A stretch of DNA of 11,321 nucleotides from a virus (IMGVR_UViG_2671180814_000016); one strand, 5' to 3'. Positions 1-11,321 are shown, numbered from the stretch's first letter. The notes: generated by a model not told the origin, from the sequence alone. Translations and numbers: made by a program.

Positions 1-1494
<1,494 letters not shown>

Positions 1495-1639
1495 ATGCGG
1501 TGCGGGTATGATCATTTTGTTCACACACAATTGATTAAACCCGCTGCCGAAAACCCTCGATAGTACCGCCAGTATGGAGGGACCCATTGAATGCAATGGT
1601 TAATATACTTTGTAAGCTATATACAATGAATCATGAGTA

Positions 1640-1942
1640 TCAAAGCCGCTTACATTTAATATCATCGTACAAAGTTCCTTCTTTGTTTAGATATCTCGAA
1701 CCGTAATTATATCCATCATCAAATGCTTCATTGGTTATTACCAGTTCCCTGTAAAATTTCTCATCAGGTGCTGTTTCATAATGAAATGCACCATAAGGCG
1801 GCGGCATTTTACCGAGATATCTTGTAACGTAGAAACTCATGTCAGTACTAAATGAATCGTTATGAATATCCCAGCATTTAAAGTCTGGAATAGCTGCACT
1901 TGTTGTTAAAGGTAATAATAATAGCAATATCAATTTTTCCAT
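1640..1942 (-). CDS. Small secreted protein (signal peptide, two Cys), unknown function
   Basis: ORF-track ORF 1640..2002 begins at a TTG. The internal ATG at 1940..1942 gives MEKLILLLLLPLTTSA|AIPDF, a typical Sec signal peptide with an A-x-A-like cleavage site. Mature protein ~84 aa. No strong RBS. Confidence 0.5.
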   Translation of the reverse strand: MEKLILLLLLPLTTSAAIPDFKCWDIHNDSFSTDMSFYVTRYLGKMPPPYGAFHYETAPDEKFYRELVITNEAFDDGYNYGSRYLNKEGTLYDDIKCKRL

Positions 1943-2105
1943 AAGAGATACCAATGCAAATGATTTAATTGCATGATAACACCTACAAAGTCTCAATACC
2001 AATTAACAAGCGATATGGCTGATTTTGTTTCAATTACGTAAAATAATTTAAAATATCGTTAATTAAAACAATTGTGATGAAATGCTCACCTTGTAATTTG
2101 TTGCG

Positions 2106-2138
2106 TATTTGATGAAAGTACTTACCCTTCATCAAATA
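2106..2138. promoter_or_regulatory. Perfect 11-bp inverted repeat (TATTTGATGAA / TTCATCAAATA) with 11-bp spacer; operator-like
   Basis: Read directly: arms 2106..2116 and 2128..2138 are exact reverse complements. AT-rich stem with no following U-run on either strand, so a protein-binding palindrome is more likely than an intrinsic terminator. Sits between the 2162..2602 gene and the 1640..1942 gene. Confidence 0.4.
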
Positions 2139-2161
2139 CACATTTCTTTAGTACTTGCCCT

Positions 2162-2602
2162 TTACTTGATAAGCAAACTATAGAATTTTCTTGTCTGCTC
2201 AACTGCAACGACAAAACAGCCAATTGCAAAACATGCTCTCAACCCACCATCCCCGCCGTGTAATGACATTGCGGTAGTGAATATAAAATTAGTCACCAAG
2301 AAAGTAATAGCCATATACAAGATGAAATATAGAAATGAGAAAATGCGGCAAAGTATATTACTGCTTTTAATATCAAATATCTTTGCAAATACTTTCGTTA
2401 GTGGTGAAAAAAGCATAGCAATAAAACCAGGAACTACAGTTAGTAAGAATATCATTACTAACATTAAAGGTACTTTAACGTATTCATAACCACTAACACG
2501 AGTTAAAATAAGTACTCCGACGATACCTGTTATTAAGCCACCGATTAGTAGTTCTTTAGTTCCTGCAAACATTTCAGAGATATTATCGACTGTAATTTTC
2601 AT
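2162..2602 (-). CDS. Integral membrane protein, ~4 predicted TM helices, unknown function
   Basis: 146-aa ORF with ATG start. Hydrophobic stretches LLIGGLITGIVGVLILT, VPLMLVMIFLLTVVPGFIAMLF, FSFLYFILYMAITFLVTNFIF and LRACFAIGCFVVAV. No recognisable family motif. Confidence 0.6.
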   Translation of the reverse strand: MKITVDNISEMFAGTKELLIGGLITGIVGVLILTRVSGYEYVKVPLMLVMIFLLTVVPGFIAMLFSPLTKVFAKIFDIKSSNILCRIFSFLYFILYMAITFLVTNFIFTTAMSLHGGDGGLRACFAIGCFVVAVEQTRKFYSLLIK

Positions 2603-2707
2603 TCTACTAACTATTCCTTCATAAAAAGTTCACTCCGATCTTATCACCGCATAAAGAAAAAGCCCTGTAGATTCTCACCATACAGCCTAAGCACTAAACT
2701 TTTCGGA

Positions 2708-2977
2708 TTACTTCGATACTACCTGCCATTGTCCATCATGCCGGATGATCTCATACTGGTACTTACCATCACACCGTACATCAATACGTCCTGTACCATT
2801 CTCAGTACTATCCATAGTCACCATATCGCATGGGTACTTACCCTTGATTAGTGACTGTGCGAAATCCATAGCGTTCTGGTTCTCATTGTCCGTGTACTGT
2901 GGCTGGGGTGCATCCTCACCTGCAATGTTGAAGAGTACCCCAGCCAGTACTAACAAAATCACCATTACCTTTCCCAT
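2708..2977 (-). CDS. Small periplasmic/secreted protein (signal peptide, two Cys)
   Basis: 89-aa ORF with ATG start and SD-like AGGG 5 nt upstream. N-terminus MGKVMVILLVLAGVLFNIAG is a signal peptide. Starts 7 bp after the stop of the upstream lipoprotein gene, so likely co-transcribed. Confidence 0.6.
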   Translation of the reverse strand: MGKVMVILLVLAGVLFNIAGEDAPQPQYTDNENQNAMDFAQSLIKGKYPCDMVTMDSTENGTGRIDVRCDGKYQYEIIRHDGQWQVVSK

Positions 2978-2984
2978 ACGTACC

Positions 2985-3347
2985 CTATAGATTGTCGAGG
3001 ATATGGGATGGTGAATTGACCCCTTCTAACCAATCGTGAACACTATCGGTCTGATGTGGTACTACCTTACTTACATGCTCTCTATAGGGATGTAGTTCAG
3101 CAATGCGGGAATCTCGTATGAGGCATCCAGTACTTGTATTGTCATCATGATAGATCTTGTTATAGATGCGACCGCAATCACTCTGGAACTGAGGACGGTA
3201 GTACTTCACCCCATTACGTGTTCCTGCATCAAACAGTACTACGGCCTTGTCATCTACATAGCCAACGTAAGCTTTATCCATGAAGCTGTGCGTAGTAGTA
3301 CATCCAGTACTAAGGGCAATCAGTAACCCAATTAGTAATTTTTTCAT
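2985..3347 (-). CDS. Probable lipoprotein (signal peptide ending ...ALSTGC)
   Basis: 120-aa ORF with ATG start and RBS AGGA 8 nt upstream. N-terminus MKKLLIGLLIALSTGC has a hydrophobic core followed by Cys; the lipobox is slightly non-canonical at -3. Starts 5 bp after the stop of the EAL-like gene. Confidence 0.6.
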   Translation of the reverse strand: MKKLLIGLLIALSTGCTTTHSFMDKAYVGYVDDKAVVLFDAGTRNGVKYYRPQFQSDCGRIYNKIYHDDNTSTGCLIRDSRIAELHPYREHVSKVVPHQTDSVHDWLEGVNSPSHILDNL

Positions 3348-3352
3348 TATTG

Positions 3353-3904
3353 TTATCCTATTAATTTTTCACATTGCTCAAAACGCATTGGCCTGAACTC
3401 TCCCTGTACCGCCCATACACCGGCCTCTCTGAGAATTGGGTAATACGTTTTATCTCTGACGGGTACGATCACCTTCTCGCAGTACTGGCGAATGCTTTTT
3501 ATGAGTACTGGAAAGATCAGACGGTCAATGTTCTCTTCTGTGTACCTTCTATTTAATCGGGCAACCTCGAAATCACCTGTAACCAGAGGAATAGCAGAAC
3601 CACCATGTACACCGAGATCATCAAGCCACTGCTGGTTATGTACTTTCATATCCCTTGTCATCTGCCGAAGGAATGGTAAGTACTCGTATGGTTCACCACG
3701 GCCAGTAGTAATCACACAATACAAACCGTTATCCCTGAACCATGCCGCCTTGCTTTCAATAAGCATTAGTTGCCCATGAAGTACTTCTTCTTCCCATAGG
3801 CCGATCTGCCTGATTCCCTCGCGTTCTACATGGCTGACCAACTCAACCCCCAGCAACTGACCACCCAAACTTGTTATCGGTATTGCCCAATTATCAATGT
3901 TCAT
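3353..3904 (-). CDS. EAL-domain-like protein, probably catalytically degenerate (YdiV/PdeH-like motif order), 183 aa
   Basis: Motifs in EAL order and spacing: AIPITSLGGQLLGVELVSH (EAL box as ELV, Arg missing), QWLDDLGVHGG (DDFGTG-like), RQYCEKVIVPVRD (where EGVE is expected, substituted), AVQGEF (QG[YW]F-like). About 55 aa shorter than a canonical EAL domain. Assigned from recalled family motifs, not a search. Confidence 0.55.
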   Translation of the reverse strand: MNIDNWAIPITSLGGQLLGVELVSHVEREGIRQIGLWEEEVLHGQLMLIESKAAWFRDNGLYCVITTGRGEPYEYLPFLRQMTRDMKVHNQQWLDDLGVHGGSAIPLVTGDFEVARLNRRYTEENIDRLIFPVLIKSIRQYCEKVIVPVRDKTYYPILREAGVWAVQGEFRPMRFEQCEKLIG

Positions 3905-3936
3905 AACTTTGCTCGTTACGCTTTAAGTTATTGATA

Positions 3937-3989
3937 ATTGATCATTTTTAAAACATTGGCAATTAAATCGATCAATTTTATTGATCATT
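3937..3989. promoter_or_regulatory. Operator-like repeats containing three GATC sites: 10-mer ATTGATCATT twice (3937..3946, 3980..3989) and palindrome GATCAAT-TTT-ATTGATC (3970..3986)
   Basis: Read directly in the 192-bp divergent intergenic region between the EAL-like gene (minus) and the LexA-box gene (plus). Three GATC tetramers within 50 bp of AT-rich DNA. Confidence 0.45.
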
Positions 3990-4055
3990 ACAATAGAATT
4001 AATCATTCAAAGTGGTAAACAAAGGGGTGCTGGATTTTTGGGAAACTGACTGCAA

Positions 4056-4075
4056 TACTGTACATATATACAGTA
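4056..4075 (+). promoter_or_regulatory. LexA (SOS) box TACTGTACATATATACAGTA
   Basis: Exact CTGT-N8-ACAG with AT-rich spacer and palindromic TA flanks. Differs from the E. coli consensus TACTGTATATATATACAGTA at one spacer position. Lies 21 bp upstream of the ATG at 4097 and 7 bp upstream of a strong SD (GAGGAGGG), where it would overlap the promoter. Confidence 0.7.
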
Positions 4076-4096
4076 ATACATAGAGGAGGGTAACAA

Positions 4097-4408
4097 ATGA
4101 GCAAAGACGGCTATGATCCATCCATTACGCGAGGGGTTCAGAAGTTCTCACATAACGGTCGCTGGGCAACCGTGTGTTATTGGGGATCTGCACTAACAGA
4201 ATTTCATTATGGGGATAGGGTATTCTTCCAGAATCAGTACAGGGAATACTGGTTAGGTACTATAGAGAGAGATTGTTTTGTACTTACCTGTGAAACACCA
4301 CTAATAAGTGTTATTGATGGGTTAGCATATCTATCTGCTGAGTACCGGATGAATCAAAGCAGTGAAGAAGGTGATTGGTTCTGTGATCAGGGGGAACTAC
4401 CCTTCTGA
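4097..4408 (+). CDS. Hypothetical 103-aa protein, predicted SOS-regulated
   Basis: ATG start with strong SD GAGGAGGG 6 nt upstream; LexA box immediately upstream. No TM segment. C-terminal EEGDWFCDQGE faintly recalls the DinI C-terminus (DDWF), which is too weak to assign. Confidence 0.7.
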   Translation: MSKDGYDPSITRGVQKFSHNGRWATVCYWGSALTEFHYGDRVFFQNQYREYWLGTIERDCFVLTCETPLISVIDGLAYLSAEYRMNQSSEEGDWFCDQGELPF

Positions 4409-4413
4409 GGATA

Positions 4414-4466
4414 CACGTACTGCTCACCCCAACAAAATAACAAACCCAACATGTGAGCAGTACGTG
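4414..4466 (+). other. Perfect 14-bp inverted repeat (CACGTACTGCTCAC / GTGAGCAGTACGTG) with 25-nt A/C-rich spacer; stem-loop or dimeric binding site
   Basis: Arms 4414..4427 and 4453..4466 are exact reverse complements. Begins 6 bp after the stop of the 4097..4408 gene and precedes the 4541 gene. No U-run directly after, so not a canonical intrinsic terminator. Confidence 0.5.
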
Positions 4467-4540
4467 AACGGGTAGTGTACTTGATTGTGTTTCGGATGGT
4501 AAAGTATTTGCCCCTTTAATGCGTTCAGGAACTACTTTCG

Positions 4541-5209
4541 ATGGATTGTAGAAAATTAAATATCGTTCTTTTATCGACCGTAGCAGTATTACTGGTTGTT
4601 GTAATTTTAGTACTAATAAAATCACTCTTTGTTGGTTCTGAAGGTTTCGAGTGGGGATCGGTTAGTGACTGGGTTAGTTCTATTGCCAATCTCATTATGG
4701 CTGGAGCAGCCCTATATGCAGCATGGAACGCTAAAAATTGGTTTCAAACTAAAATAAAGGAAAATGCTTTAAATCAAGTTACTAAGTTCTGGACTAATTG
4801 CGATCTTTTTTCGTTGGAGATGTTGAAAACATATGAAAATATATGCAACCTTAACAATACTGAACCAGATATAGAACCAAAAAATTTCGCACATTTAGTT
4901 AAAACTGAACGAGAAGTTATCGATCTATTAAACATTAAGTTAGCCTCATTAAAAAGCGAATTGCAATCACTTACCTTTTGGAAAGTATCGCCAAAAGATG
5001 AAGCTATATTCAATAATTATTTCTTCAGTAATCAAATTGCTTTAGGAACATTGAGGGAAGCGATAAGTTTTGATATAAATGACATTCATGATAGATATCA
5101 TTACAATGTCAGCTATGGAAAGTTATTAGTAGATACATTTGATAGTTTAATAGAAGCACATGCAACCTTGAAAAAGGACATGAATAACTTATTCGTTTTC
5201 TCTAATTAG
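4541..5209 (+). CDS. Membrane protein: two N-terminal TM helices plus ~150-aa soluble domain, unknown function
   Basis: 222-aa ORF with ATG start; weak SD (AGGA 10 nt upstream). TM segments LNIVLLSTVAVLLVVVILVLI and VSSIANLIMAGAALYAAW. Very AT-rich and nearly devoid of GTAC, unlike flanking DNA. Confidence 0.6.
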   Translation: MDCRKLNIVLLSTVAVLLVVVILVLIKSLFVGSEGFEWGSVSDWVSSIANLIMAGAALYAAWNAKNWFQTKIKENALNQVTKFWTNCDLFSLEMLKTYENICNLNNTEPDIEPKNFAHLVKTEREVIDLLNIKLASLKSELQSLTFWKVSPKDEAIFNNYFFSNQIALGTLREAISFDINDIHDRYHYNVSYGKLLVDTFDSLIEAHATLKKDMNNLFVFSN

Positions 5210-5229
5210 AGTCCACAACTCCCAATAGA

Positions 5230-5248
5230 CGGTGGGGTATCCTCACCG
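5230..5248. other. GC-rich hairpin CGGTGGGG-tat-CCTCACCG (8-bp stem with one G-U) between convergent genes
   Basis: Read directly. Begins 21 bp after the stop of the 4541..5209 gene. No flanking U-run, so terminator function is uncertain. Confidence 0.35.
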
Positions 5249-5385
5249 CTATAACTAACATCTCAACATTAAGATTTATAAGGTCTTCATTAAAGTACTC
5301 CCCCTTTCGTACCTCCTATATAAATAGAGGAAGTAATATATATCACCATCGTAGGTGTTAAATTCCATTCTTATCATCTCGTAAA

Positions 5386-5427
5386 CCCTATAGTGGGTTA
5401 GTAGTTCTAACCCTCAATCTATAGTGG
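5386..5427. repeat. Hairpin GGGTTAG-tagtt-CTAACCC (5395..5413) bracketed by direct repeats CTATAGTGG (5388..5396, 5419..5427)
   Basis: Read directly in the convergent intergenic region 5210..5465. The 7-bp stem arms are exact reverse complements; the 9-bp direct repeat is exact. Confidence 0.4.
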
Positions 5428-5465
5428 CATCTAACATTTACCTTACATTCCAAAAAATATTATTC

Positions 5466-5939
5466 TTAAGTCTTTTTATCTTGCTTAAGTAATGCAATGA
5501 GTCTGTGAGAGTTAGGGATTTTATGTTCATTCCCCTCCACATCTAAAATAGTTATATCTTCTAAATGACAAATATCACATTCATTATCTATCGTGACTAA
5601 GTCTGAGCTTACCAATTCAAATTTTTTTCTTTGCTTTTCTTTAATAACAATGCTCTCTTTTGGAGATGAATGGCTCCTAATGCCTTTTTCATAATGGCAA
5701 AGCATCCCTTCCAAAACTGCATCACGCCTACCAACATTGATCACTATCACCTCGATTTTATAAGGTTCCTCATCAAAAGACTCGTAGACGAGGTCAGCTG
5801 TTATTTTTAGCCTTGATCTATCATGCCATGCTGCCCTACCGGAGAAGTATAAGGAAGTACATGCAATAATAAATGACAACGCCGAAAAAGCAATAGTTAA
5901 CACATCTTTATATGTAGCTGCTATTGTTGTTATGCTCAT
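5466..5939 (-). CDS. Membrane-anchored protein (one N-terminal TM helix), unknown function
   Basis: 157-aa ORF with ATG start. TM segment LTIAFSALSFIIACTSLYF. Follows the HNH gene on the same strand after an 82-bp gap. AT-rich and GTAC-poor. Confidence 0.55.
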   Translation of the reverse strand: MSITTIAATYKDVLTIAFSALSFIIACTSLYFSGRAAWHDRSRLKITADLVYESFDEEPYKIEVIVINVGRRDAVLEGMLCHYEKGIRSHSSPKESIVIKEKQRKKFELVSSDLVTIDNECDICHLEDITILDVEGNEHKIPNSHRLIALLKQDKKT

Positions 5940-6021
5940 TTTTCTCTCAACTTACATGTCTAATTTAAAGCATATTGTATTCATAACTTTTCAAGTATGT
6001 CGTATCAAGTCTAAAATAAAT

Positions 6022-6765
6022 TCAAATTTTATTGCTGTCTTTAAACAACAGTGCTTTTAAACTTTCGACACTTAATACTTCGTTACCGCGATGTACCATT
6101 GCGTGACAGTTTGGACAAAGTGGAACCATATCAGTAATTGGATTTACCTCGTAATCCTCGCCTACTGTGTGTAGCGGTTTGATATGATGAACGTGTATAA
6201 AGCCCTTGGCGTGTTCACCATAGACTTTCTCAAAGTTAAACTCACAACACCCGCAGGAAGTACCATGATGGTCAATACAAGCCTGTCGTGCTTTTGGATC
6301 ACGCTCGTAGGAGTTTACTGTAACTTGCTTTTTTGCACCCTCAGCGTAGTTTTCAGGTGAGGTAATTTCATCTGGAAATGGATTAGGTAAAAAGTCTGCA
6401 TACCAAACTGTTCCTTCTTTCCGAAGGTAACGTTTTTCAAGTTTTGGAGTGAACCGTTTGATAACAGCTACATCTCTATTCTCATCGTTTCGTCCCTGCT
6501 CCATATCAAACGTGTAAAGCTCATAACCTTCAGCTATCAATTGAATGTGTTCAATAGCTTGAATATATCCAAGATTTTTTCTTTCCTTTCCCTCCACAAC
6601 TTTGGTTTTCCACCGCTCCCTCAGAATGACTGATCTTTCTTGCTCTTTTTGTACATCCCATGCACCAAAGATAACCATTTTCTTGTCGTGGTTCACAAAT
6701 GACCAACTCCAAGTCCAGTTACTACAAGTAGCACCATGCGACTGGATGAATTGTTTTCTGTTCAT
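6022..6765 (-). CDS. McrA-like zinc-finger HNH nuclease with an unassigned ~170-aa N-terminal domain
   Basis: 247-aa ORF with ATG start and strong RBS GAGAGGGA. C-terminus CGCCEFNFEKVYGEHAKGFIHVHHIKPLHTVGEDYEVNPITDMVPLCPNCHAMVH matches the CxxC...HH...N...CPNCH..H pattern of McrA-type HNH domains as recalled from E. coli McrA. The N-terminal region matches no domain I can name. Confidence 0.8.
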   Translation of the reverse strand: MNRKQFIQSHGATCSNWTWSWSFVNHDKKMVIFGAWDVQKEQERSVILRERWKTKVVEGKERKNLGYIQAIEHIQLIAEGYELYTFDMEQGRNDENRDVAVIKRFTPKLEKRYLRKEGTVWYADFLPNPFPDEITSPENYAEGAKKQVTVNSYERDPKARQACIDHHGTSCGCCEFNFEKVYGEHAKGFIHVHHIKPLHTVGEDYEVNPITDMVPLCPNCHAMVHRGNEVLSVESLKALLFKDSNKI

Positions 6766-6955
6766 GGTATCCCTCTCTTAATTCCCTCTTTGTACACAAA
6801 AAATGCCTACTTGATCCAGTACTTTATGTAGCTATCCAATAGCATCATAGTAGTGGAAATGACCAGAGCGAGAGTTGTGGAACTGGCGGGGCATGTCGTA
6901 CTTACCAATTCACTTTAGGTACTTCATTTGCTGTACTAACATCTATCGAGCAAAG

Positions 6956-7052
6956 CGAGTAGTAACGCCTTGCGGGTTTTCGAGTACTGGCGAGAAAAAC
7001 GCAACGTTACTAACCAATACTACGAGGAGTTCACGACGAGTAGTATTCGTGA
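6956..7052. other. Structured non-coding segment: imperfect 13-bp hairpin (6960..7012), nested stems ATACTAC/GTAGTAT and TCACGA/TCGTGA, and 9-bp direct repeat CGAGTAGTA (6956..6964, 7037..7045)
   Basis: Read directly inside the 463-bp gap between the 7229..7690 gene and the HNH gene. The only ORF here (6875..7135, plus) has a TTG start, no RBS and implausible composition. Confidence 0.4.
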
Positions 7053-7136
7053 CGCAAGTCACAGTTTCTTGGAATACTGATAGAGAAAGAAATACATGGA
7101 ATGAAATGGAATGGATTTCGTATCTCTATACTTAGT

Positions 7137-7220
7137 TGCCGTATTGATGGTAAATAGCGGGTTTCAGGGGCTTTTTTTGCCGTATTACGGCATACATCCA
7201 TGCCGTAATATGCCGTAATA
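7137..7220. repeat. Iteron-like array: five copies of TGCCGTA core — 7137..7143 (direct), 7178..7192 (15-bp palindrome TGCCGTA-T-TACGGCA), 7201..7210 and 7211..7220 (exact tandem TGCCGTAATA x2)
   Basis: Read directly. A T7 run (7172..7178) abuts the palindrome. The tandem copies have 10-bp periodicity. Located just 3' of the 7229..7690 gene and ~370 bp 5' of the HNH gene. Confidence 0.6.
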
Positions 7221-7228
7221 AGTTACAA

Positions 7229-7690
7229 TTAACGCAAGCCCTTTAAGTACTCGATCATGTCATCAATAAAGTCACCTTGTTTTTGTAGTTCCAATAGTTT
7301 ACCAAACTCTTTATATGTTAGTGTTCTTTGTCCATATACTGGTGCTGGCAGTGCGTTTGGGTGTGCCAACATATACTGCTCTATTCGTTTTGCTGCATCC
7401 GTGATCGCTGCCCCATAGTACCTGATCATACGTTCTTTTACTTGTTTCTTATTCTGTTGTACTTTAATAGCATTGATAGTATTGAATAGTAAATCATTCC
7501 GTAATTCATCTTCATTACTCAATACTGCAAACACATCATATACACTAATCTTATCTCTCACTTTAAGTTTAGCTACTGAGTCCTTCATGATGTTCTTGAT
7601 GTCTTCGCATGGGATATCTTTATATAGCTTGTACTGGCTAATTAGTGCTTTTATGTTTCTGTTATCAAAAGTTGAATAGGTTTTTGCCAT
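7229..7690 (-). CDS. Hypothetical protein, 153 aa, predicted alpha-helical, unknown function
   Basis: ORF with ATG start; SD-like AGGA 9 nt upstream. No recognisable motif. Confidence 0.6.
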   Translation of the reverse strand: MAKTYSTFDNRNIKALISQYKLYKDIPCEDIKNIMKDSVAKLKVRDKISVYDVFAVLSNEDELRNDLLFNTINAIKVQQNKKQVKERMIRYYGAAITDAAKRIEQYMLAHPNALPAPVYGQRTLTYKEFGKLLELQKQGDFIDDMIEYLKGLR

Positions 7691-7784
7691 GATAAATAAT
7701 CCTGTATAAATTAATTAATCGTGACCCGTAGTGATTACAGGCCATTTAATAAGTTTGGCTTCATTGCCATTGAGTTTTGAATAG

Positions 7785-7815
7785 ATGCCAGTACTGGAAT
7801 ACTGGCATTTTTTAT
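7785..7815. terminator. Hairpin ATGCCAGTA-ctggaa-TACTGGCAT followed by T-run ATTTTTTAT on the plus strand; possible bidirectional terminator at the 3' end of the HNH homing endonuclease gene
   Basis: Stem arms are exact reverse complements and contain the palindrome CCAGTACTGG. The U-run is strong in plus orientation and weak in minus orientation. The T-run overlaps the minus-strand stop codon of the 7812..8366 gene. Confidence 0.45.
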
Positions 7816-8366
7816 GGTTTACGTTGAATGGTTAGGCTTTGTATTCTTTGTCTTTGCTTATTCGTAAGATATGTTGTGTACCATTTTGAATAGGTAGTAC
7901 CTTTGAATAACTTACCTATATTCTGAGGGCAAATATTAATACCAGTTTGATTTAAAAACCATTTAGTGATTGCATATTGAGATAATTGTCCTTTAAGGTA
8001 CTCTCCAACAATCATTAACCATTGCTTTAGAGTAAGCTTTTGAGTACGAGTACCTTTATGCTTTCTATTGGAATTATTAACCTTCTGAGTTACCCAACGT
8101 AAATTTTTTGCTTTGTTATTCATTTTATCGCGGTCGATATGATCTACAGTGTATCTTCCTCCAATGGGTTTAGCACCATTGAATAAAGTACAAACCAAAA
8201 CATGTACATATAGTGATTTGCCATTAATAGAAACTTTTTTGTATCCATTAGATGGGTTTTTCGTAGCTATATACTGTTTTGTTTTATCATTGTAAACATC
8301 GCCATTTTCAGATACGTAGTAATGTTTTGAATTTGGAATTAATCTCCAAGTGATTTTAGGGTTCAT
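7812..8366 (-). CDS. HNH homing endonuclease (HNH_3 / NUMOD4-type) with probable C-terminal DNA-binding region
   Basis: 184-aa ORF with ATG start and RBS AAGGA 8 nt upstream. N-terminal W.LIP....YYVSENGDVY (NUMOD4-like), then YVHVLVCTLFNG...VDHIDRDKMNNKAKNLRWVTQKVN, typical of free-standing phage HNH homing endonucleases. Confidence 0.8.
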   Translation of the reverse strand: MNPKITWRLIPNSKHYYVSENGDVYNDKTKQYIATKNPSNGYKKVSINGKSLYVHVLVCTLFNGAKPIGGRYTVDHIDRDKMNNKAKNLRWVTQKVNNSNRKHKGTRTQKLTLKQWLMIVGEYLKGQLSQYAITKWFLNQTGINICPQNIGKLFKGTTYSKWYTTYLTNKQRQRIQSLTIQRKP

Positions 8367-8420
8367 ATCAAACGTCCTTGTTGTTATCGCGTCACTCCAT
8401 GTGATCGCGTCTGCTACTAC

Positions 8421-8723
8421 TTAGAGGCCAGTAGCATTTAGCCTATATTCATCCCTCGCCTTCTCACATACGATTAGCAAACGGTTTAAACATTCCTTAT
8501 GTTCATCTTCAGCAGCCAGTACAAACATTACCATTGGTAATCCGTCGATTAGGTAATTTCCATTCCATGTAATAGTACCTAATACTTCTGGATCACCAAT
8601 TCGTTCATAATGTGCTTCTAATGAACCTTCCTGATACTTCACACAATAGAAATAGTGATAATCCATATCCCCTACTATTGTGTAATCATCAAAATATTGT
8701 ACTAAATCAAAGTCATTCTTCAT
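8421..8723 (-). CDS. Hypothetical acidic protein (~100 aa), translationally coupled to the upstream RHH gene
   Basis: ORF-track ORF 8421..8729 starts at a GTG; the ATG two codons in (8721..8723) gives MKNDFDLVQYF... It overlaps the stop of the RHH gene (8713..8715) by 11 nt. No toxin-family motif recognised. Confidence 0.55.
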   Translation of the reverse strand: MKNDFDLVQYFDDYTIVGDMDYHYFYCVKYQEGSLEAHYERIGDPEVLGTITWNGNYLIDGLPMVMFVLAAEDEHKECLNRLLIVCEKARDEYRLNATGL

Positions 8724-8898
8724 TACCACCGCCCTGTAAAATCATGTACTGATTAATTAAGTACTGAACACAGGCTGATAATGAATCTTTCTGTACCTTC
8801 CCACTACTAATTAGCTGGTTAAGTACAAGTACTTGATCGTCATTAAGACGTGCGGTTACTACATGATGTTTGCGTTCCTTTAAAGTTACTTTTTTCAT
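8713..8898 (-). CDS. Ribbon-helix-helix DNA-binding protein (Arc/Mnt/CopG-like)
   Basis: 61-aa ORF with ATG start and RBS AAGGA 7 nt upstream. HVVTARLNDDQVLVLNQLISSGKVQKDSLSACVQYLINQYM fits beta-strand / helix / G-turn / helix, comparable to P22 Arc as recalled. Preceded by TGTAT direct repeats and a terminator. Confidence 0.6.
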   Translation of the reverse strand: MKKVTLKERKHHVVTARLNDDQVLVLNQLISSGKVQKDSLSACVQYLINQYMILQGGGNEE

Positions 8899-8943
8899 TT
8901 CTATATCCTTATAGGTGTATTTGTATACTGTATTTATAAATCC

Positions 8944-8975
8944 AAATTAAAAAGATACCTCTCTCGCAAGAGAGG
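8944..8975 (-). terminator. Rho-independent terminator: stem CCUCUCU-UGCG-AGAGAGG then UAUCUUUUUAAUUU in the minus-strand transcript
   Basis: Read directly. Exact 7-bp stem with 4-nt loop, followed by a U-rich tract, downstream of the 9337..9738 / 9087..9260 gene pair. Confidence 0.65.
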
Positions 8976-9086
8976 CAATCTTAATTAAAAAGGAAATTTA
9001 TTGTCGCTATATTATTTATGTTCAAAGCTGGAGCGGAAGGCAAAACGCATTATCGTTCTGATACTATTAGTATAGCACCAAAACTT

Positions 9087-9260
9087 TTAGCGTTTCATTT
9101 TTCTTACTACGTATTTATTTATCGATTTGATTTTTAATGGGGAAAGCAATAGTACTAAAATCATAGATAAAAACATGAGCACTATATATATTGGGATTAT
9201 CAGAAAGATGTAAAGTACAAAGCCTACTATCTCGTAAAGTAATTTAGTAAACCATTCCAT
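9087..9260 (-). CDS. Small hydrophobic membrane protein (~57 aa)
   Basis: ORF-track ORF 9087..9326 starts at TTG. The internal ATG at 9258..9260 (MEWFTKLLYEIVGFVLYIFLIIPIYIVLMFLSMILVLLL...) has G-rich SD-like TGGGGG ~9 nt upstream. Start choice is uncertain. Confidence 0.45.
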   Translation of the reverse strand: MEWFTKLLYEIVGFVLYIFLIIPIYIVLMFLSMILVLLLSPLKIKSINKYVVRKMKR

Positions 9261-9336
9261 TTTGAAGTACCCCCATTCACATTCAACTTTATAGTATTTA
9301 GTGAGGGAGTACTTAAAACGTAACAATTTGGATGTG

Positions 9337-9738
9337 TTAGCTAATAAGTTTTAGTATAGGTTTCGAATAAATGACAAGTCCAGTAACTGAACATTTTGCT
9401 TCTTTTATCTCTTCAATTAGTTCCATTGATATTGGATGTTTGAAAGCTTGAGTACACTCCTGACAGCCTGCCTCCGTTAGCGGAAACTCATCTGTTATAA
9501 CTTGAATTTCAGAAGAATACGGCAAAAAAATGTACTGAACTTTAATTTTGTTGGAAAATTCGTACTTGCATAAGCTCTCATCTTGAGAATCATTCCGCTT
9601 TGAAAAAAGCCTTAATTGATTCTCTTCATTCAATGAGATCCCAATATCATAATTCTCAGGGAAAAATTGACGGAATTTTTCTTTTTTTGCTTTATTTTCT
9701 TTCTTACGCATTTTGGCAATCCTCTCTTTAGAATTCAT
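9337..9738 (-). CDS. Hypothetical protein, 133 aa, basic N-terminus, unknown function
   Basis: ORF with ATG start and weak RBS. A putative promoter lies upstream. The next gene follows after a 10-bp gap. Confidence 0.55.
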   Translation of the reverse strand: MNSKERIAKMRKKENKAKKEKFRQFFPENYDIGISLNEENQLRLFSKRNDSQDESLCKYEFSNKIKVQYIFLPYSSEIQVITDEFPLTEAGCQECTQAFKHPISMELIEEIKEAKCSVTGLVIYSKPILKLIS

Positions 9739-9778
9739 CTCATGGTTTCATCGCTCCTATTCGTTAGTGAATGACGCT

Positions 9779-9807
9779 ATGGTACTGGTTTAACGTTGAA
9801 AAGTCAA
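9779..9807 (-). promoter_or_regulatory. Putative sigma70 promoter (TTGACT-17 bp-TACCAT) for the 9337..9738 gene
   Basis: Minus-strand -35 TTGACT (plus 9802..9807) and -10 TACCAT (plus 9779..9784) with a 17-bp spacer, ~40 bp upstream of the ATG at 9738. Sequence-only call. Confidence 0.4.
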
Positions 9808-9824
9808 AAAAGTTAATTTTACCC

Positions 9825-9853
9825 TTGACTATTCTAACACACGCTGATATAAA
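9825..9853 (+). promoter_or_regulatory. Near-consensus sigma70 promoter with extended -10 (TTGACT-17 bp-TGaTATAAA), back-to-back with the minus-strand promoter and directed toward the recombinase 3' end
   Basis: Plus-strand -35 TTGACT 9825..9830, 17-bp spacer, TG at 9845..9846, -10 TATAAA 9848..9853. No credible plus-strand ORF downstream. Confidence 0.4.
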
Positions 9854-10033
9854 TGATTTGCTGTATTTTGCACGGAAATCTTAAACCCATCGGGTGCGTA
9901 GTTATATCCAAAATTCATAATCCCTCTTTTATTGCTCTATCTACAATGCCGTTAGATTTCGACATCGTAGATATATTGTTCAAATATTAACTCGCATAAT
10001 TCATTCTACAAGACCATAAATTCTCATTAGCTT

Positions 10034-11321
10034 TTAATCCATCCAATCAATCATATCTTCATTAACAATGATCTCAAATTTTTCACGCTTGAGAAGATTA
10101 AGATACAATCCAACATCATCAAGTATTTTGGTACGGCTAATGGCAAGCGACCACATATCAGTACCAGATGTAACGGAGGCAATGAAAACGGTTTTGCCCT
10201 CTTCATTGACAGTGTAGACACGCTCGCCGCTTGTTTCAGAGATTACGATCTCATGTAGTACTTCACCCCCGCCCCGCTTGTTATCAATCACAAGCGTATG
10301 GGATAGGACATCATTGAAGTATTCCAACTGTACAAATATACGCTTTTCAAAAACCCAGTACTTAACAGATTTCAGTACTAATCTTACTTCTTTCCGTAAC
10401 TTTGCACGTAACTCGACATTCAATGGATCAAGTACTTTATTAATATCGAAATCAAATACAGGGATTTCTTTGATGTTCTTTGAATTTAATATCTCAGATT
10501 CTATTTCTTCAATTCTATCCTGTACCTCAGTTAAACCCGTCATTAATGGTAACGAGGCTTTCTTACCTGCTGCCTTACGTTCATTAATTTTAACCTGATA
10601 GGTTTCTGCCTCTTTCTGTAAAGTACTTAACTCTTCTCGCAATGATGCAAGCAATGAATCTGAATCCGACTTACCTTCCATCATCAATTTATTGAAGTCT
10701 ACATTTTTGACAAGCTGTAGAATGTTCTTTTCAATTCTCATGTACTGGATAGATTTAGCATCGCAGATCTTCTTTTCTTCCCTGTTACGACAAATAACAT
10801 ACTTAGTTCGTACATGATTATAGTGAATTGCAATATTGCCCCCACAGTGACCGCATTTCAGCATCTTCGGGAAGAGGTTAGTAATGTAATCATCCTGAGC
10901 AATGGTAATGTCCTTACGGATACGATTAGCTATACCATTCCGCGATAACTTCTCATTAGCCCGTTCAAAGGTGAGGTTATCGATAATCTTCATGGTAACT
11001 ACTTTCTTATCACGTAGTACCCTCAGTACATTGACGGTACTCCACCCTTTCGGCAAGCGTTTTACAATCGCCCCTGAACCAAGGCCTGTCTCATAAAGTT
11101 TAAAAATCTCTCGGACAACTTCTGGTTCAAGTAATAGATCCTCTGCTGGCTTCTTCTTCTCCAACATAACGCGATCCATCATTCTATTCGCTGTCAGGAA
11201 CAACTCTTCGTCGATGATTTTCGGGTAAACGTTTGGTACTACCTCACCGTTGTAACGTTCATGCTCGCCCAACAAACGGCGATCACGTATCTGAGGTGTA
11301 CTGGCAATAGCGGACACTACC
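10034..11321 (-). CDS. Large serine recombinase/integrase, C-terminal ~428 residues; 5' end (catalytic resolvase domain) beyond the right edge
   Basis: Frame is open to the window edge; the ORF-track start at 11317 is a GTG and probably not the true start. Contains recombinase-domain-like segments (YPKIIDEELF, EPEVVREIFKLYETGLGSGAIVKRL), a zinc-ribbon motif (CGHCGG...C..C) and a coiled-coil-like stretch (LREELSTLQKEAETYQVKINERK), the architecture of large serine recombinases. Confidence 0.65.
   Translation of the reverse strand, partial: VVSAIASTPQIRDRRLLGEHERYNGEVVPNVYPKIIDEELFLTANRMMDRVMLEKKKPAEDLLLEPEVVREIFKLYETGLGSGAIVKRLPKGWSTVNVLRVLRDKKVVTMKIIDNLTFERANEKLSRNGIANRIRKDITIAQDDYITNLFPKMLKCGHCGGNIAIHYNHVRTKYVICRNREEKKICDAKSIQYMRIEKNILQLVKNVDFNKLMMEGKSDSDSLLASLREELSTLQKEAETYQVKINERKAAGKKASLPLMTGLTEVQDRIEEIESEILNSKNIKEIPVFDFDINKVLDPLNVELRAKLRKEVRLVLKSVKYWVFEKRIFVQLEYFNDVLSHTLVIDNKRGGGEVLHEIVISETSGERVYTVNEEGKTVFIASVTSGTDMWSLAISRTKILDDVGLYLNLLKREKFEIIVNEDMIDWMD

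What the first reader, a model, noticed from the sequence alone, without database searches (positions are those of the whole stretch)
6766..7228. Large non-coding region with a TGCCGTA iteron array and nested hairpins
This 463-bp gap is the longest non-coding stretch in a gene-dense window. It contains five copies of the TGCCGTA core (one direct, one 15-bp palindrome, two exact tandem 10-mers at helical periodicity) next to a T7 run. It also has a 53-nt imperfect hairpin, further nested stems and a 9-bp direct repeat CGAGTAGTA. This layout is typical of a replication origin, a terminase or recombinase recognition site, or a structured ncRNA; none is annotated by the ORF track.
Basis: seen in the sequence. 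Interest (0 to 1): 0.55.

Follow-up and report, generated by a model that had tools for sequence, protein, structure and literature searches.

The report
Prophage control region with new RNA
The gap is real and functional. It holds binding-site repeats matched to the neighbouring small protein, plus a conserved folded RNA-like element found in no RNA catalogue, and together they probably form the replication or lifestyle control region of an undescribed family of enterobacterial prophages and small islands.

Summary

The window is the early region of a ~35-kb Shigella sonnei prophage. It has a large serine integrase and lies next to yeaG.

The gap has three layers:
- **Conserved structured element, about 6849-7062.** Its core (6916-7019) has 44 distinct relatives in Enterobacterales prophages and small islands. 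The 53-nt hairpin carries compensatory changes in 10 of 11 pairs. G-U versus A-C counts put the structure on the + strand, opposite to the flanking genes. It matches no Rfam family, sequenced phage or plasmid.
- **Short A+T-rich box.**
- **TGCCGTA array.** Relatives replace it with unrelated repeats, and each repeat type tracks the subtype of the adjacent ~155-aa helical protein. That protein has no known family.

A conserved + strand terminator lies just beyond that gene's start codon.

Best reading (0.42): an operator or iteron array plus a convergent non-coding RNA, forming a feedback switch. Main rival (0.3): an iteron-type replication origin.

Nothing shows a transcript, protein binding or replication. 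Novelty: new variant of a known kind. Interest: 0.6.

The parts
6766..6848 (.). Upstream region shared with the HNH cargo gene (6022-6765, -). It holds that gene's ribosome-binding region and one AGTACT copy (6818-6823). By eye only, there is a weak + strand promoter candidate, TTGATC (6811-6816), a 16-nt spacer, then TATCCA (6833-6838).
   Evidence: The promoter scan found no consensus-grade site anywhere in 6500-7500, so the promoter is inference.
6849..6899 (+). Probable 5' end and type-specific 5' hairpin of the structured element. AGTAGTGG (6849-6856) corresponds to AGTAAGGG, the point where conservation begins in relatives. Predicted stem: GAAATGACC (6856-6864) with GGGGCATGTC (6888-6897).
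   Evidence: Alignments. No covariation support for this stem; predicted only.
6916..7019 (+). Conserved core of the structured element. P0 pairs 6918-6922 with 6933-6937. P1 pairs 6950-6951 with 6955-6956. P2 pairs 6960-6967 with 7005-7012 and 6970-6974 with 7000-7004; this is the 53-nt hairpin. P3 pairs 6978-6982 with 6991-6995 and has an invariant loop AGTACnn.
   Evidence: blastn core in 31 E. coli genomes. nhmmer hits. Covariance model R1 gives 118 bits at 6916-7019. Pair counts.
7013..7062 (+). Type-A-specific 3' hairpins, which are mutually exclusive or pseudoknotted. AATACTAC (7016-7023) pairs with GTAGTATT (7040-7047). TCACGA (7031-7036) pairs with TCGTGA (7047-7052). GTGAC (7049-7053) pairs with GTCAC (7058-7062), followed by AGTTTCTT. 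The loop repeats CGAGTAGTA from the core.
   Evidence: Conserved within type A, but there is no sequence variation in the stems, so covariation cannot be tested.
6869..7040 (+). Cluster of seven CGAG motifs, all on the + strand (starting at 6869, 6947, 6956, 6981, 6991, 7023, 7037). They are part of a recurring GAGC-RAAGCGAR-like motif that often sits in loops.
   Evidence: One search gives 48 copies on both strands in 11.3 kb, so about 0.4 would be expected on one strand in 172 nt. Motif recurrence in relatives.
7095..7114 (.). Short AATGG-type pentanucleotide repeat whose copy number varies between S. sonnei isolates. This explains gap lengths of 463 versus 468 nt.
   Evidence: L008/L015 carry one extra aatgg.
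7121..7136 (.). A+T-rich box TATCTCTATACTTAG, which includes TATACT at 7127-7132. It occupies the position of the conserved palindromic box TTAATATTAATATAAG of relatives, directly abutting the first repeat.
   Evidence: Its function (promoter -10, operator or unwinding element) is inferred.
7137..7217 (.). TGCCGTA repeat array: 7137-7143 (+), 7178-7184 (+), 7186-7192 (-), 7201-7207 (+), 7211-7217 (+). The T7 run is at 7172-7178. The array ends 12 nt from the stop codon of the 153-aa gene.
   Evidence: Conserved in 17 type-A relatives, with copy number varying from 4 to 6. Replaced by other repeats where the protein subtype differs.
7229..7690 (-). Gene for the 153-aa all-helical protein, the presumed repeat-binding partner. 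It always lies convergent to the structured element.
   Evidence: No Pfam, PHROG, PADLOC or PDB relative.
7783..7810 (+). Intrinsic-terminator-like hairpin AGATGCCAGTACTGGAATACTGGCATTT followed by TTTTATGG. It would end + strand transcription that runs antisense over the 153-aa gene. A partly deleted remnant of the family's usual terminator lies at about 7722-7743.
   Evidence: An equivalent hairpin plus T-tract lies 30-40 nt beyond the start codon in about 20 of 24 relatives.

Best explanation
The gap is the control region of a portable two-part module found in a family of enterobacterial prophages and small integrative islands.

- Part one is an array of short repeats (here TGCCGTA) recognised by the adjacent 153-aa helical protein.
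- Part two is a conserved, highly structured non-coding RNA. It is transcribed from the + strand, towards the repeats and the 3' end of that protein's gene.

Proposed mechanism: + strand transcription starts at or just upstream of the structured element, near 6849. It crosses the A+T box and the repeats, runs antisense over the whole 153-aa gene, and stops at a conserved terminator just past the gene's start codon (7783-7810 here). The protein bound to the repeats blocks or represses this antisense transcription, while the antisense RNA lowers expression of the protein. The result is a feedback switch that sets the level of an early-operon regulator or initiator.

Shown: the repeats; the co-variation of repeat type with protein subtype; the conserved structure and its strand; the conserved terminator.

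Inferred: that the element is transcribed; the promoter; protein-DNA binding; the direction of regulation; and whether the switch governs replication or the lysis-lysogeny decision.
For: - Core conservation. The core is 76-88% identical in 31 E. coli genomes, while the adjacent proteins share only 14-23% identity.
- Number of relatives. 44 distinct core variants were recovered from viral, genome and metagenome contigs.
- Hairpin P2, model-fitted alignment. 10 of 11 pairs show changes on both sides. 89% of cells are paired, against at most 44.5% when partners are slid.
- Hairpin P2, MAFFT-only alignment. The same signal appears: 93.6% paired, with UA/AU 9:7 and GC/CG 9:8.
- Strand. In hairpins 2 and 3 of relatives, G-U pairs outnumber A-C 16 to 1. 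P3 has an invariant U-G pair.
- Loops. The P1 loop varies in sequence and length (GAAA, GAGA, AAA, GATC) between invariant flanks. This suits a hairpin, not a duplex-DNA site.
- Repeat specificity. Eight unrelated repeat types each go with one subtype of the ~155-aa protein. They are independent of which HNH_3/AP2-like gene lies upstream.
- Terminator. A + strand hairpin plus T-tract, with compensatory stems, lies 30-40 nt beyond the start codon in about 20 of 24 loci. In the window it is at 7783-7810.
- Portability. The module is retained in 9-10-kb islands with tyrosine integrases and no structural genes.
Against: - No transcript data are available.
- No consensus-grade sigma-70 promoter was found on either strand in 6500-7500. 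Candidate promoters are weak and read by eye.
- Folding energy is not exceptional and is equal on both strands.
- G-U versus A-C counts in P2 on the model-fitted alignment are balanced at 22 versus 21. The strand call therefore rests on hairpins 2 and 3, P0 and P3.
- Hairpins 2 and 3 belong to the type-B 3' module. The window's own type-A 3' module is different and shows no variation to test.
- Repeats at the 3' end of the regulator's own gene are an unusual place for an operator.
Confidence: 0.42

Rival explanations
1. Iteron-type origin of replication. The 153-aa protein is a new kind of initiator that binds the TGCCGTA iterons and opens the neighbouring A+T-rich DNA. The structured + strand RNA activates, primes or limits initiation, in the manner of transcriptional activation at the lambda origin, ColE1 RNA II or plasmid antisense copy-control RNAs. 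This overlaps with the best explanation, since a control RNA plus a Rep-iteron pair is how many replicons work.
For: - The prophage has no recognisable replication gene anywhere in the early region, so an origin and initiator must be hidden among unknowns.
- Direct plus inverted copies of one short repeat next to the gene for a type-specific protein is the classic iteron layout.
- In relatives, one repeat abuts a conserved A+T box. Then 60-130 nt of A+T-rich spacer separates it from the main array.
- Read by eye from the sequences, two loci (L036, L174) carry a perfect WATCAANNNNTTR match (TATCAAGGGTTTA) in that spacer. This was not tested statistically.
- Repeat copy number varies, e.g. three tandem ATGCCGTAAT units in L256.
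- The module persists in small islands that have lost or never had structural genes.
Against: - The protein has no similarity in sequence or fold to Rep_3, RepA_N, lambda O or any winged-helix initiator.
- In the window the spacer is only 34 nt and is not especially A+T-rich.
- Reading the sequence by eye showed no clear DnaA box in the window; no pattern search was run.
- All repeats lie downstream of the gene and none lies upstream.
- No replication data exist.
Confidence: 0.3
2. The conserved structure works as single-stranded DNA, not RNA. For example, it could be a priming (primosome-assembly or primase-recognition) signal for lagging-strand synthesis during rolling-circle replication. 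It could also be a signal used when the element is mobilised.
For: - Strand-specific G-T tolerance and compensatory changes fit a single-stranded DNA hairpin as well as RNA.
- From general knowledge, such signals are conserved across otherwise unrelated replicons, as this core is.
- No good promoter was found.
Against: - There are at least five consecutive hairpins over more than 200 nt.
- GNRA-type tetraloops occur in P1.
- A conserved downstream + strand terminator is present.
- A sharp 5' conservation boundary is preceded by variable -10-like hexamers.

All of these fit a transcript better. No relaxase or rolling-circle nuclease is encoded.
Confidence: 0.1
3. A DNA packaging (cos/pac) or recombinase recognition site shared between helper prophages and small satellite-like islands.
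For: - The core is the only nucleotide-level similarity between the S. sonnei prophage and the small E. coli islands, as expected for a site that a common machinery must recognise.
- There is only a 35-nt gap upstream of the small terminase gene, so cos is not in the usual place.
Against: - The site is about 6 kb from the terminase genes.
- No sequenced phage shares it.
- Strand-asymmetric wobble pairs and loops of variable length are not expected for a duplex protein-binding site.
- The attachment sites are at the prophage ends.
Confidence: 0.05
4. No current function in this genome: a decaying remnant whose repeats and hairpins are historical.
For: - The S. sonnei prophage is decaying. IS elements interrupt the large terminase gene and a cargo gene.
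- The family's usual terminator hairpin is partly deleted at about 7722-7743.
Against: - The core, the repeats and the 153-aa gene are intact here and identical across many S. sonnei genomes.
- The family-wide constraint is clear.
Confidence: 0.05

Closest known systems
Iteron-controlled replicons (P1 oriR/incA with RepA, pSC101, R6K, lambda O/ori)
   Same: Several direct and inverted copies of one short sequence lie next to the gene of a protein whose subtype co-varies with the repeat sequence. An A+T-rich segment is adjacent, and an array sits directly after the gene's stop codon, as with P1 incA (general knowledge). The replacement of modules between relatives is also shared.
   Different: The protein is about 155 aa, all-helical, and unrelated in sequence or predicted fold to known initiators. 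No repeats lie upstream of the gene. No clear DnaA box was seen by eye in the window. Replication is untested.
Convergent or cis-antisense control RNAs of phages and plasmids (lambda oop, P22 sar, R1 CopA, R6K silencer RNA)
   Same: An RNA gene lies convergent to a regulator or initiator gene and is bounded by an intrinsic terminator. It sits in the control region of a mobile element.
   Different: Those RNAs are 60-150 nt and overlap the target's 5' or 3' end. Here the conserved structured part lies wholly outside the gene, is at least 200 nt, and would be followed by about 600 nt of antisense sequence. No Rfam model matches.
RNA-based immunity of P4 (CI RNA) and P1/P7/N15 (C4-type RNAs)
   Same: In these temperate elements a processed structured RNA takes the repressor's role. 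In this family the RNA is the only conserved + strand feature in the early region.
   Different: There is no sequence or model similarity. No complementary target sites were found elsewhere in the window. Processing is unknown.
ColE1 RNA II and the RNA-based origins of extrachromosomal mycobacteriophage prophages (PMC7157519)
   Same: A structured RNA is transcribed towards the presumed origin in an element that lacks a recognisable Rep protein family.
   Different: Here a type-specific protein and repeats are also present. No RNase H-type transition site or antisense partner has been identified.
Vibrio cholerae PLE satellites (PMC7567579)
   Same: These are integrative elements with a large serine recombinase. 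They have a large non-coding region containing the origin, and abundant non-coding transcripts with a proposed regulatory role.
   Different: No sequence relationship was detected. PLE RepA belongs to a known initiator family. The present element carries its own capsid and tail genes.

Membership tests
Iteron-type replication origin | Three or more copies of one short repeat, clustered, some at helical spacing | tested here: met
   Five TGCCGTA copies in 81 nt, including two tandem 10-mers. Relatives carry 3-6 copies of their own repeat.
Iteron-type replication origin | Cognate initiator encoded next to the repeats, with matching specificity | tested here: inconclusive
   Repeat type tracks the subtype of the ~155-aa protein in 24 of 24 loci. 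Binding and initiation were not tested.
Iteron-type replication origin | Initiator belongs to a known Rep family or has a winged-helix fold | tested here: not met
Iteron-type replication origin | Adjacent A+T-rich unwinding region and host-factor sites (DnaA, IHF) | tested here: inconclusive
   Relatives have 60-130 nt of A+T-rich spacer. Read by eye from the sequences, two relatives (L036, L174) carry an IHF-consensus match. The window has only a 34-nt spacer with a T7 run. No clear DnaA box was seen by eye; no pattern search was run.
Iteron-type replication origin | Supports autonomous or helper-dependent replication | not testable with these tools
   Needs a cloning or marker-frequency experiment.
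Any described RNA family (Rfam 15, including C4/CI antisense RNAs, HEARO, retron and phage sRNAs where modelled) | Match to the family covariance model | tested here: not met
   No hit at gathering score in the window or in 7 related loci. Only two chance-level hits at E up to 10.
Structured non-coding RNA (generic) | Base pairs maintained by compensatory changes, with a strand-specific G-U excess | tested here: met
   P2 has 10 of 11 pairs with double changes, and the covariation score is 0.226 against at most 0.09 for slid controls. The MAFFT-only alignment agrees. G-U to A-C is 16:1 in hairpins 2 and 3. Caveat: the count in P2 is balanced at 22:21 on the model-fitted alignment.
Structured non-coding RNA (generic) | Promoter, terminator and a detectable transcript | tested here: inconclusive
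   A conserved + strand terminator lies downstream. No consensus promoter was found. Transcript evidence is not obtainable with these tools.
cos/pac packaging site | Adjacent to the terminase genes and shared with the phages that package it | tested here: not met
   The small terminase gene is at 350-895, about 6 kb away. No match in 50,697 phage records.
Retron (msr-msd) or IscB/HEARO guide RNA | Adjacent reverse transcriptase (retron) or RuvC-HNH nuclease (IscB) | tested here: not met
   There is no reverse transcriptase in the window. The 247-aa neighbour has only an HNH domain and is absent from 10 of 24 loci that keep the RNA.

The most novel reading that the evidence does not exclude
This undescribed family of enterobacterial temperate phages and satellite-like islands has no protein repressor. 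Its maintenance or immunity factor, or its replication licence, would be the roughly 1-kb convergent non-coding RNA. The conserved, multi-hairpin 5' domain of that RNA displays repeated GAGC-RAAGCGAR loops and two invariant AGUAC loops. This domain would engage a host or helper factor, or the more than 100 AGTACT sites scattered over the element. The type-specific protein-repeat pair would provide heteroimmunity.
Probability: 0.15. Interest if true: 0.85.

Novelty: new variant of a known kind. Interest (0 to 1): 0.6.

Why it matters
If the model holds, the region defines three things:
- a new structured RNA family, widespread in Enterobacterales mobile elements and absent from Rfam;
- a new family of sequence-specific DNA-binding proteins, with eight or more natural specificity variants and their cognate sites;
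- the control or replication module of a prophage lineage with no cultured representative. The closest capsid in 50,697 phage records is about 30% identical.

The module also occurs in 9-10-kb islands that carry defence-like cargo. It may therefore explain how such islands are induced, copied or kept silent. The natural protein-site pairs could also serve as orthogonal parts for engineering.

Tried and rejected
- **DNA similarity searches.** megablast and blastn of the gap and of the whole window against phage and plasmid collections found no match.
- **RNA gene searches.** tRNA/tmRNA search found none. Rfam at gathering and permissive thresholds gave only chance hits, HtrA thermometer and mir-360.
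- **Loose pattern scan.** Only Kluyvera (L036) and Mangrovibacter (L068) were real.
- **Structure prediction without comparison.** RNAalifold on the raw MAFFT alignment recovered only fragments, because the 5' arm of P2 was misaligned. Single-sequence folding was uninformative on strand.
- **Trans targets of the RNA.** A search of the window for extra copies of the loop sequences found none.
- **Literature.** A search for the invariant sequence strings returned only unrelated papers.
- **Retron, IscB-guide and type III toxin-antitoxin readings.** Rejected, because no reverse transcriptase, RuvC-HNH nuclease or tandem RNA repeats with a toxin are consistently adjacent.
- **Apparent promoter upstream of the protein gene.** The match TTAACA-17-TATCAT was rejected as the promoter for that gene. 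Its -10 hexamer overlaps the start codon and the stretch contains the ribosome-binding site.

Full report
**1. The observation**

The sequence features are as described.
- TGCCGTA occurs at 7137, 7178, 7186 (reverse), 7201 and 7211. That is five of only six copies in the window, against 0.69 expected.
- The 15-bp palindrome is at 7178-7192, the tandem ATGCCGTAAT pair at 7200-7219, and the T7 run at 7172-7178.
- The 53-nt hairpin spans 6960-7012, and the CGAGTAGTA pair is at 6956 and 7037.
- The gap lies between two minus-strand ORFs: a 247-aa HNH protein (6022-6765) and a 153-aa protein (7229-7690).
- Folding energy alone is unremarkable and equal on both strands.

**2. What the window is**

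Exact-protein look-ups place the window in Shigella sonnei (for example 53G, HE616528.1), next to yeaG. The element runs in this order:
- a 644-aa serine integrase;
- a few small early genes;
- the 153-aa gene, then the gap;
- variable cargo;
- small and large terminase, portal, protease-capsid fusion and tail genes.

It is therefore a prophage of about 35 kb, decaying in Shigella through IS insertions. No sequenced phage resembles it at the DNA level. The closest capsid is about 30% identical.

**3. A conserved core**

A sensitive blastn search against 5,426 complete E. coli genomes matched only about 6892-7019 of the gap, at 76-88% identity. There were 31 matching genomes, always in unannotated DNA and in different islands:
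- at ffs and at thiM, with tyrosine integrases and no structural genes;
- at yeaG, with the serine integrase.

In each island a ~155-175-aa minus-strand gene lies about 250 nt to the right. These proteins are only 14-23% identical to the window's protein. Pattern scans of viral, genome and metagenome contigs were filtered with a profile. This raised the set to about 90 loci and 44-46 distinct cores, all from Enterobacterales or unassigned contigs.

**4. Structure and strand**

The evidence for a real structure on the + strand is as follows.
- On an alignment made without any structure model, the 53-nt hairpin (P2) is 93.6% paired. It shows UA/AU 9:7 and GC/CG 9:8 exchanges, against at most 42% pairing when partners are slid.
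- A covariance model (R1) was used to realign 44 distinct sequences. Ten of the 11 P2 pairs then show changes on both sides. The covariation score is 0.226, against at most 0.09 for the slid controls. That alignment leans towards the model.
- The inner helix P3 (TTTCG/CGAGA, with a U-G pair) and its AGTAC loop are invariant.
- The small P1 hairpin keeps its flanks while its loop changes in sequence and length: GAAA, GAGA, AAA, GATC, GTTC. This argues against a duplex-DNA protein site.
- In relatives with the commonest 3' module, two further hairpins follow. They carry compensatory changes and have 16 G-U pairs against 1 A-C. This places the structure on the + strand, opposite to the flanking genes.
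- In P2 itself the counts are balanced, 22 to 21, on an imperfect alignment.
- Many relatives also have a conserved 5' domain that begins sharply at AGTAAGGG. The window's equivalent is AGTAGTGG at 6849.
- The hairpin-2 unit occurs 0, 1 or 3 times in different relatives.
- A CGAG-containing motif recurs in loops. In the window there are seven + strand copies in 172 nt.
- No Rfam family matches the window or seven relatives.

**5. Repeats as a specificity module**

To the right of the structured part, relatives share a palindromic A+T box (TTAATATTAATATAAG) abutting a first repeat. An A+T-rich spacer follows, then a repeat array that ends at the stop codon of the ~155-aa gene.

The repeat sequence differs completely between groups:
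- TGCCGTA
- GTTACGGTTAT
- GTACTAATTC
- GGGCTAA
- ATAACCACATA
- GGAAAGATG
- AATTCGGG
- TTCTGCGAA

Each repeat type goes with one subtype of the protein. It does not depend on which HNH_3/AP2-like gene lies upstream, and it holds in islands that lack the RHH gene. Within the window's type, 17 variants keep the repeats, and copy number varies. The 153-aa protein is therefore the likely binder.

**6. The protein**

**7. A convergent transcription unit**

A strong hairpin followed by a T-tract on the + strand lies 30-40 nt beyond the start codon of the ~155-aa gene in about 20 of 24 loci. The stem sequences change in a compensatory way between groups. In the window that hairpin is partly deleted, and a similar one sits at 7783-7810. 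This implies + strand transcription running antisense across the whole gene. Its origin must lie in the gap. No consensus promoter was detected; only weak candidates were seen by eye.

**8. Interpretation**

Shown:
- the repeats;
- the pairing of repeat type with protein subtype;
- a conserved + strand structure;
- a conserved + strand terminator.

Inferred: transcription, protein binding and function.

The most economical model is a feedback switch. The protein bound at the repeats controls a convergent non-coding RNA, and that RNA in turn lowers expression of the protein (confidence 0.42).

The chief rival, which overlaps with this model, is an iteron-type origin in which the protein is a new initiator and the RNA is an activator, primer or copy control (0.3). 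It is attractive because the element has no recognisable replication gene. It is weakened because the protein is unlike known initiators.

A single-stranded-DNA role (0.1), a packaging or recombinase site (0.05) and a functionless remnant (0.05) are less likely.

**9. Comparison and novelty**

The layout resembles several known systems: iteron replicons; convergent control RNAs (lambda oop, R1 CopA, R6K silencer RNA); the RNA-based immunity of P4 and P1; and the RNA-based origins of mycobacteriophage prophages (PMC7157519). It also resembles the non-coding origin region of PLE satellites (PMC7567579). It is not a member of any described RNA or initiator family by the tests run here. I rate it a new variant of a known kind, with interest 0.6.

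**10. Seen in passing**

AGTACT is the commonest hexamer of the element. The window has 34 copies against 3 expected, and 20.5 kb of an intact relative has 65. The sites fall in all three reading frames, and none occurs in the host flanks. Copies lie in the invariant loops of the core and in the terminators. This is unexplained.

Noticed in passing
window 1-11321 (34 sites, e.g. 6818, 6983, 7246, 7790); L289 1-20546; L023 1000-11000: The palindromic hexamer AGTACT is the single most frequent hexamer of the element. The window has 34 copies against 3.06 expected (at most 7 in 200 shuffles). An intact relative has 65 copies in 20.5 kb, including its capsid and tail genes. GTAC is enriched about 3-fold. 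Sites fall in all three reading frames (24/7/20) and are absent from flanking host DNA. The 10-mer CCAGTACTGG, allowing up to 2 mismatches, occurs 15 times against 2.6 expected. The small ffs island shares the enrichment; the thiM island (L021) does not. The cause is unknown; possibilities include a binding, modification or silencing site.
   Followed up: partly
window 7783-7810 and 7722-7743; relatives 30-40 nt beyond the start codon of the ~155-aa gene: A conserved + strand intrinsic terminator with compensatory stems lies upstream of the ~155-aa gene in about 20 of 24 loci. In S. sonnei the usual hairpin is partly deleted, and a second hairpin containing CCAGTACTGG lies 93 nt out.
   Followed up: yes
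window 6022-6765 (-): The 247-aa neighbour has a C-terminal HNH domain and matches PADLOC models of type IV methyl-directed restriction enzymes (E = 5e-7). It is cargo, present in 14 of 24 related loci. Other loci carry different cargo at the same position, for example an 8xMP membrane protein, an AAA ATPase pair, or NdpA-like and DUF3800 genes.
   Followed up: partly
window 7095-7114: The AATGG-type pentanucleotide repeat differs by one unit between S. sonnei isolates, giving gap lengths of 463 versus 468 nt. A T-run length difference (462 nt) also occurs.
   Followed up: partly
L239 14224-14432; L162 and L260: The 34-nt hairpin-2 unit of the RNA (AGAGACTGAC-GAGCAAAGCGAT-GTTAGGCTCT) is tandemly triplicated in one metagenomic relative and deleted in two others. 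It is flanked by the direct repeat AGAGACTGA. Its 3' arm can alternatively pair with the downstream repeat, and one relative (L281) changed all three segments together.
   Followed up: partly
window 7812-8366 (-), 8713-8898 (-), 9087-9326 (-): The conserved early genes upstream of the 153-aa gene are: an HNH_3/NUMOD4 protein, interchangeable with an AP2-like protein in relatives; a ~60-aa protein whose sequence pattern looks like a ribbon-helix-helix fold by eye, with no Pfam match; and a ~57-aa hydrophobic protein. No helicase, primase, polymerase or CI/Cro-type repressor was recognised anywhere in the early region.
   Followed up: partly
L002/L290 (S. sonnei 53G), L004, L006: The Shigella copies of the prophage carry IS21, IS3 and IS1 insertions, in a cargo gene, in the large terminase gene, and replacing the integrase side in some strains. 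The prophage is therefore defective there, although the gap and the 153-aa gene stay intact.
   Followed up: no
window 7257-7418 (+) and L023 8359-8586 (+): Short + strand ORFs (53 and 75 aa) lie antisense inside the ~155-aa gene. They would sit within the proposed antisense transcript. They are probably spurious, but coding potential was not tested.
   Followed up: no
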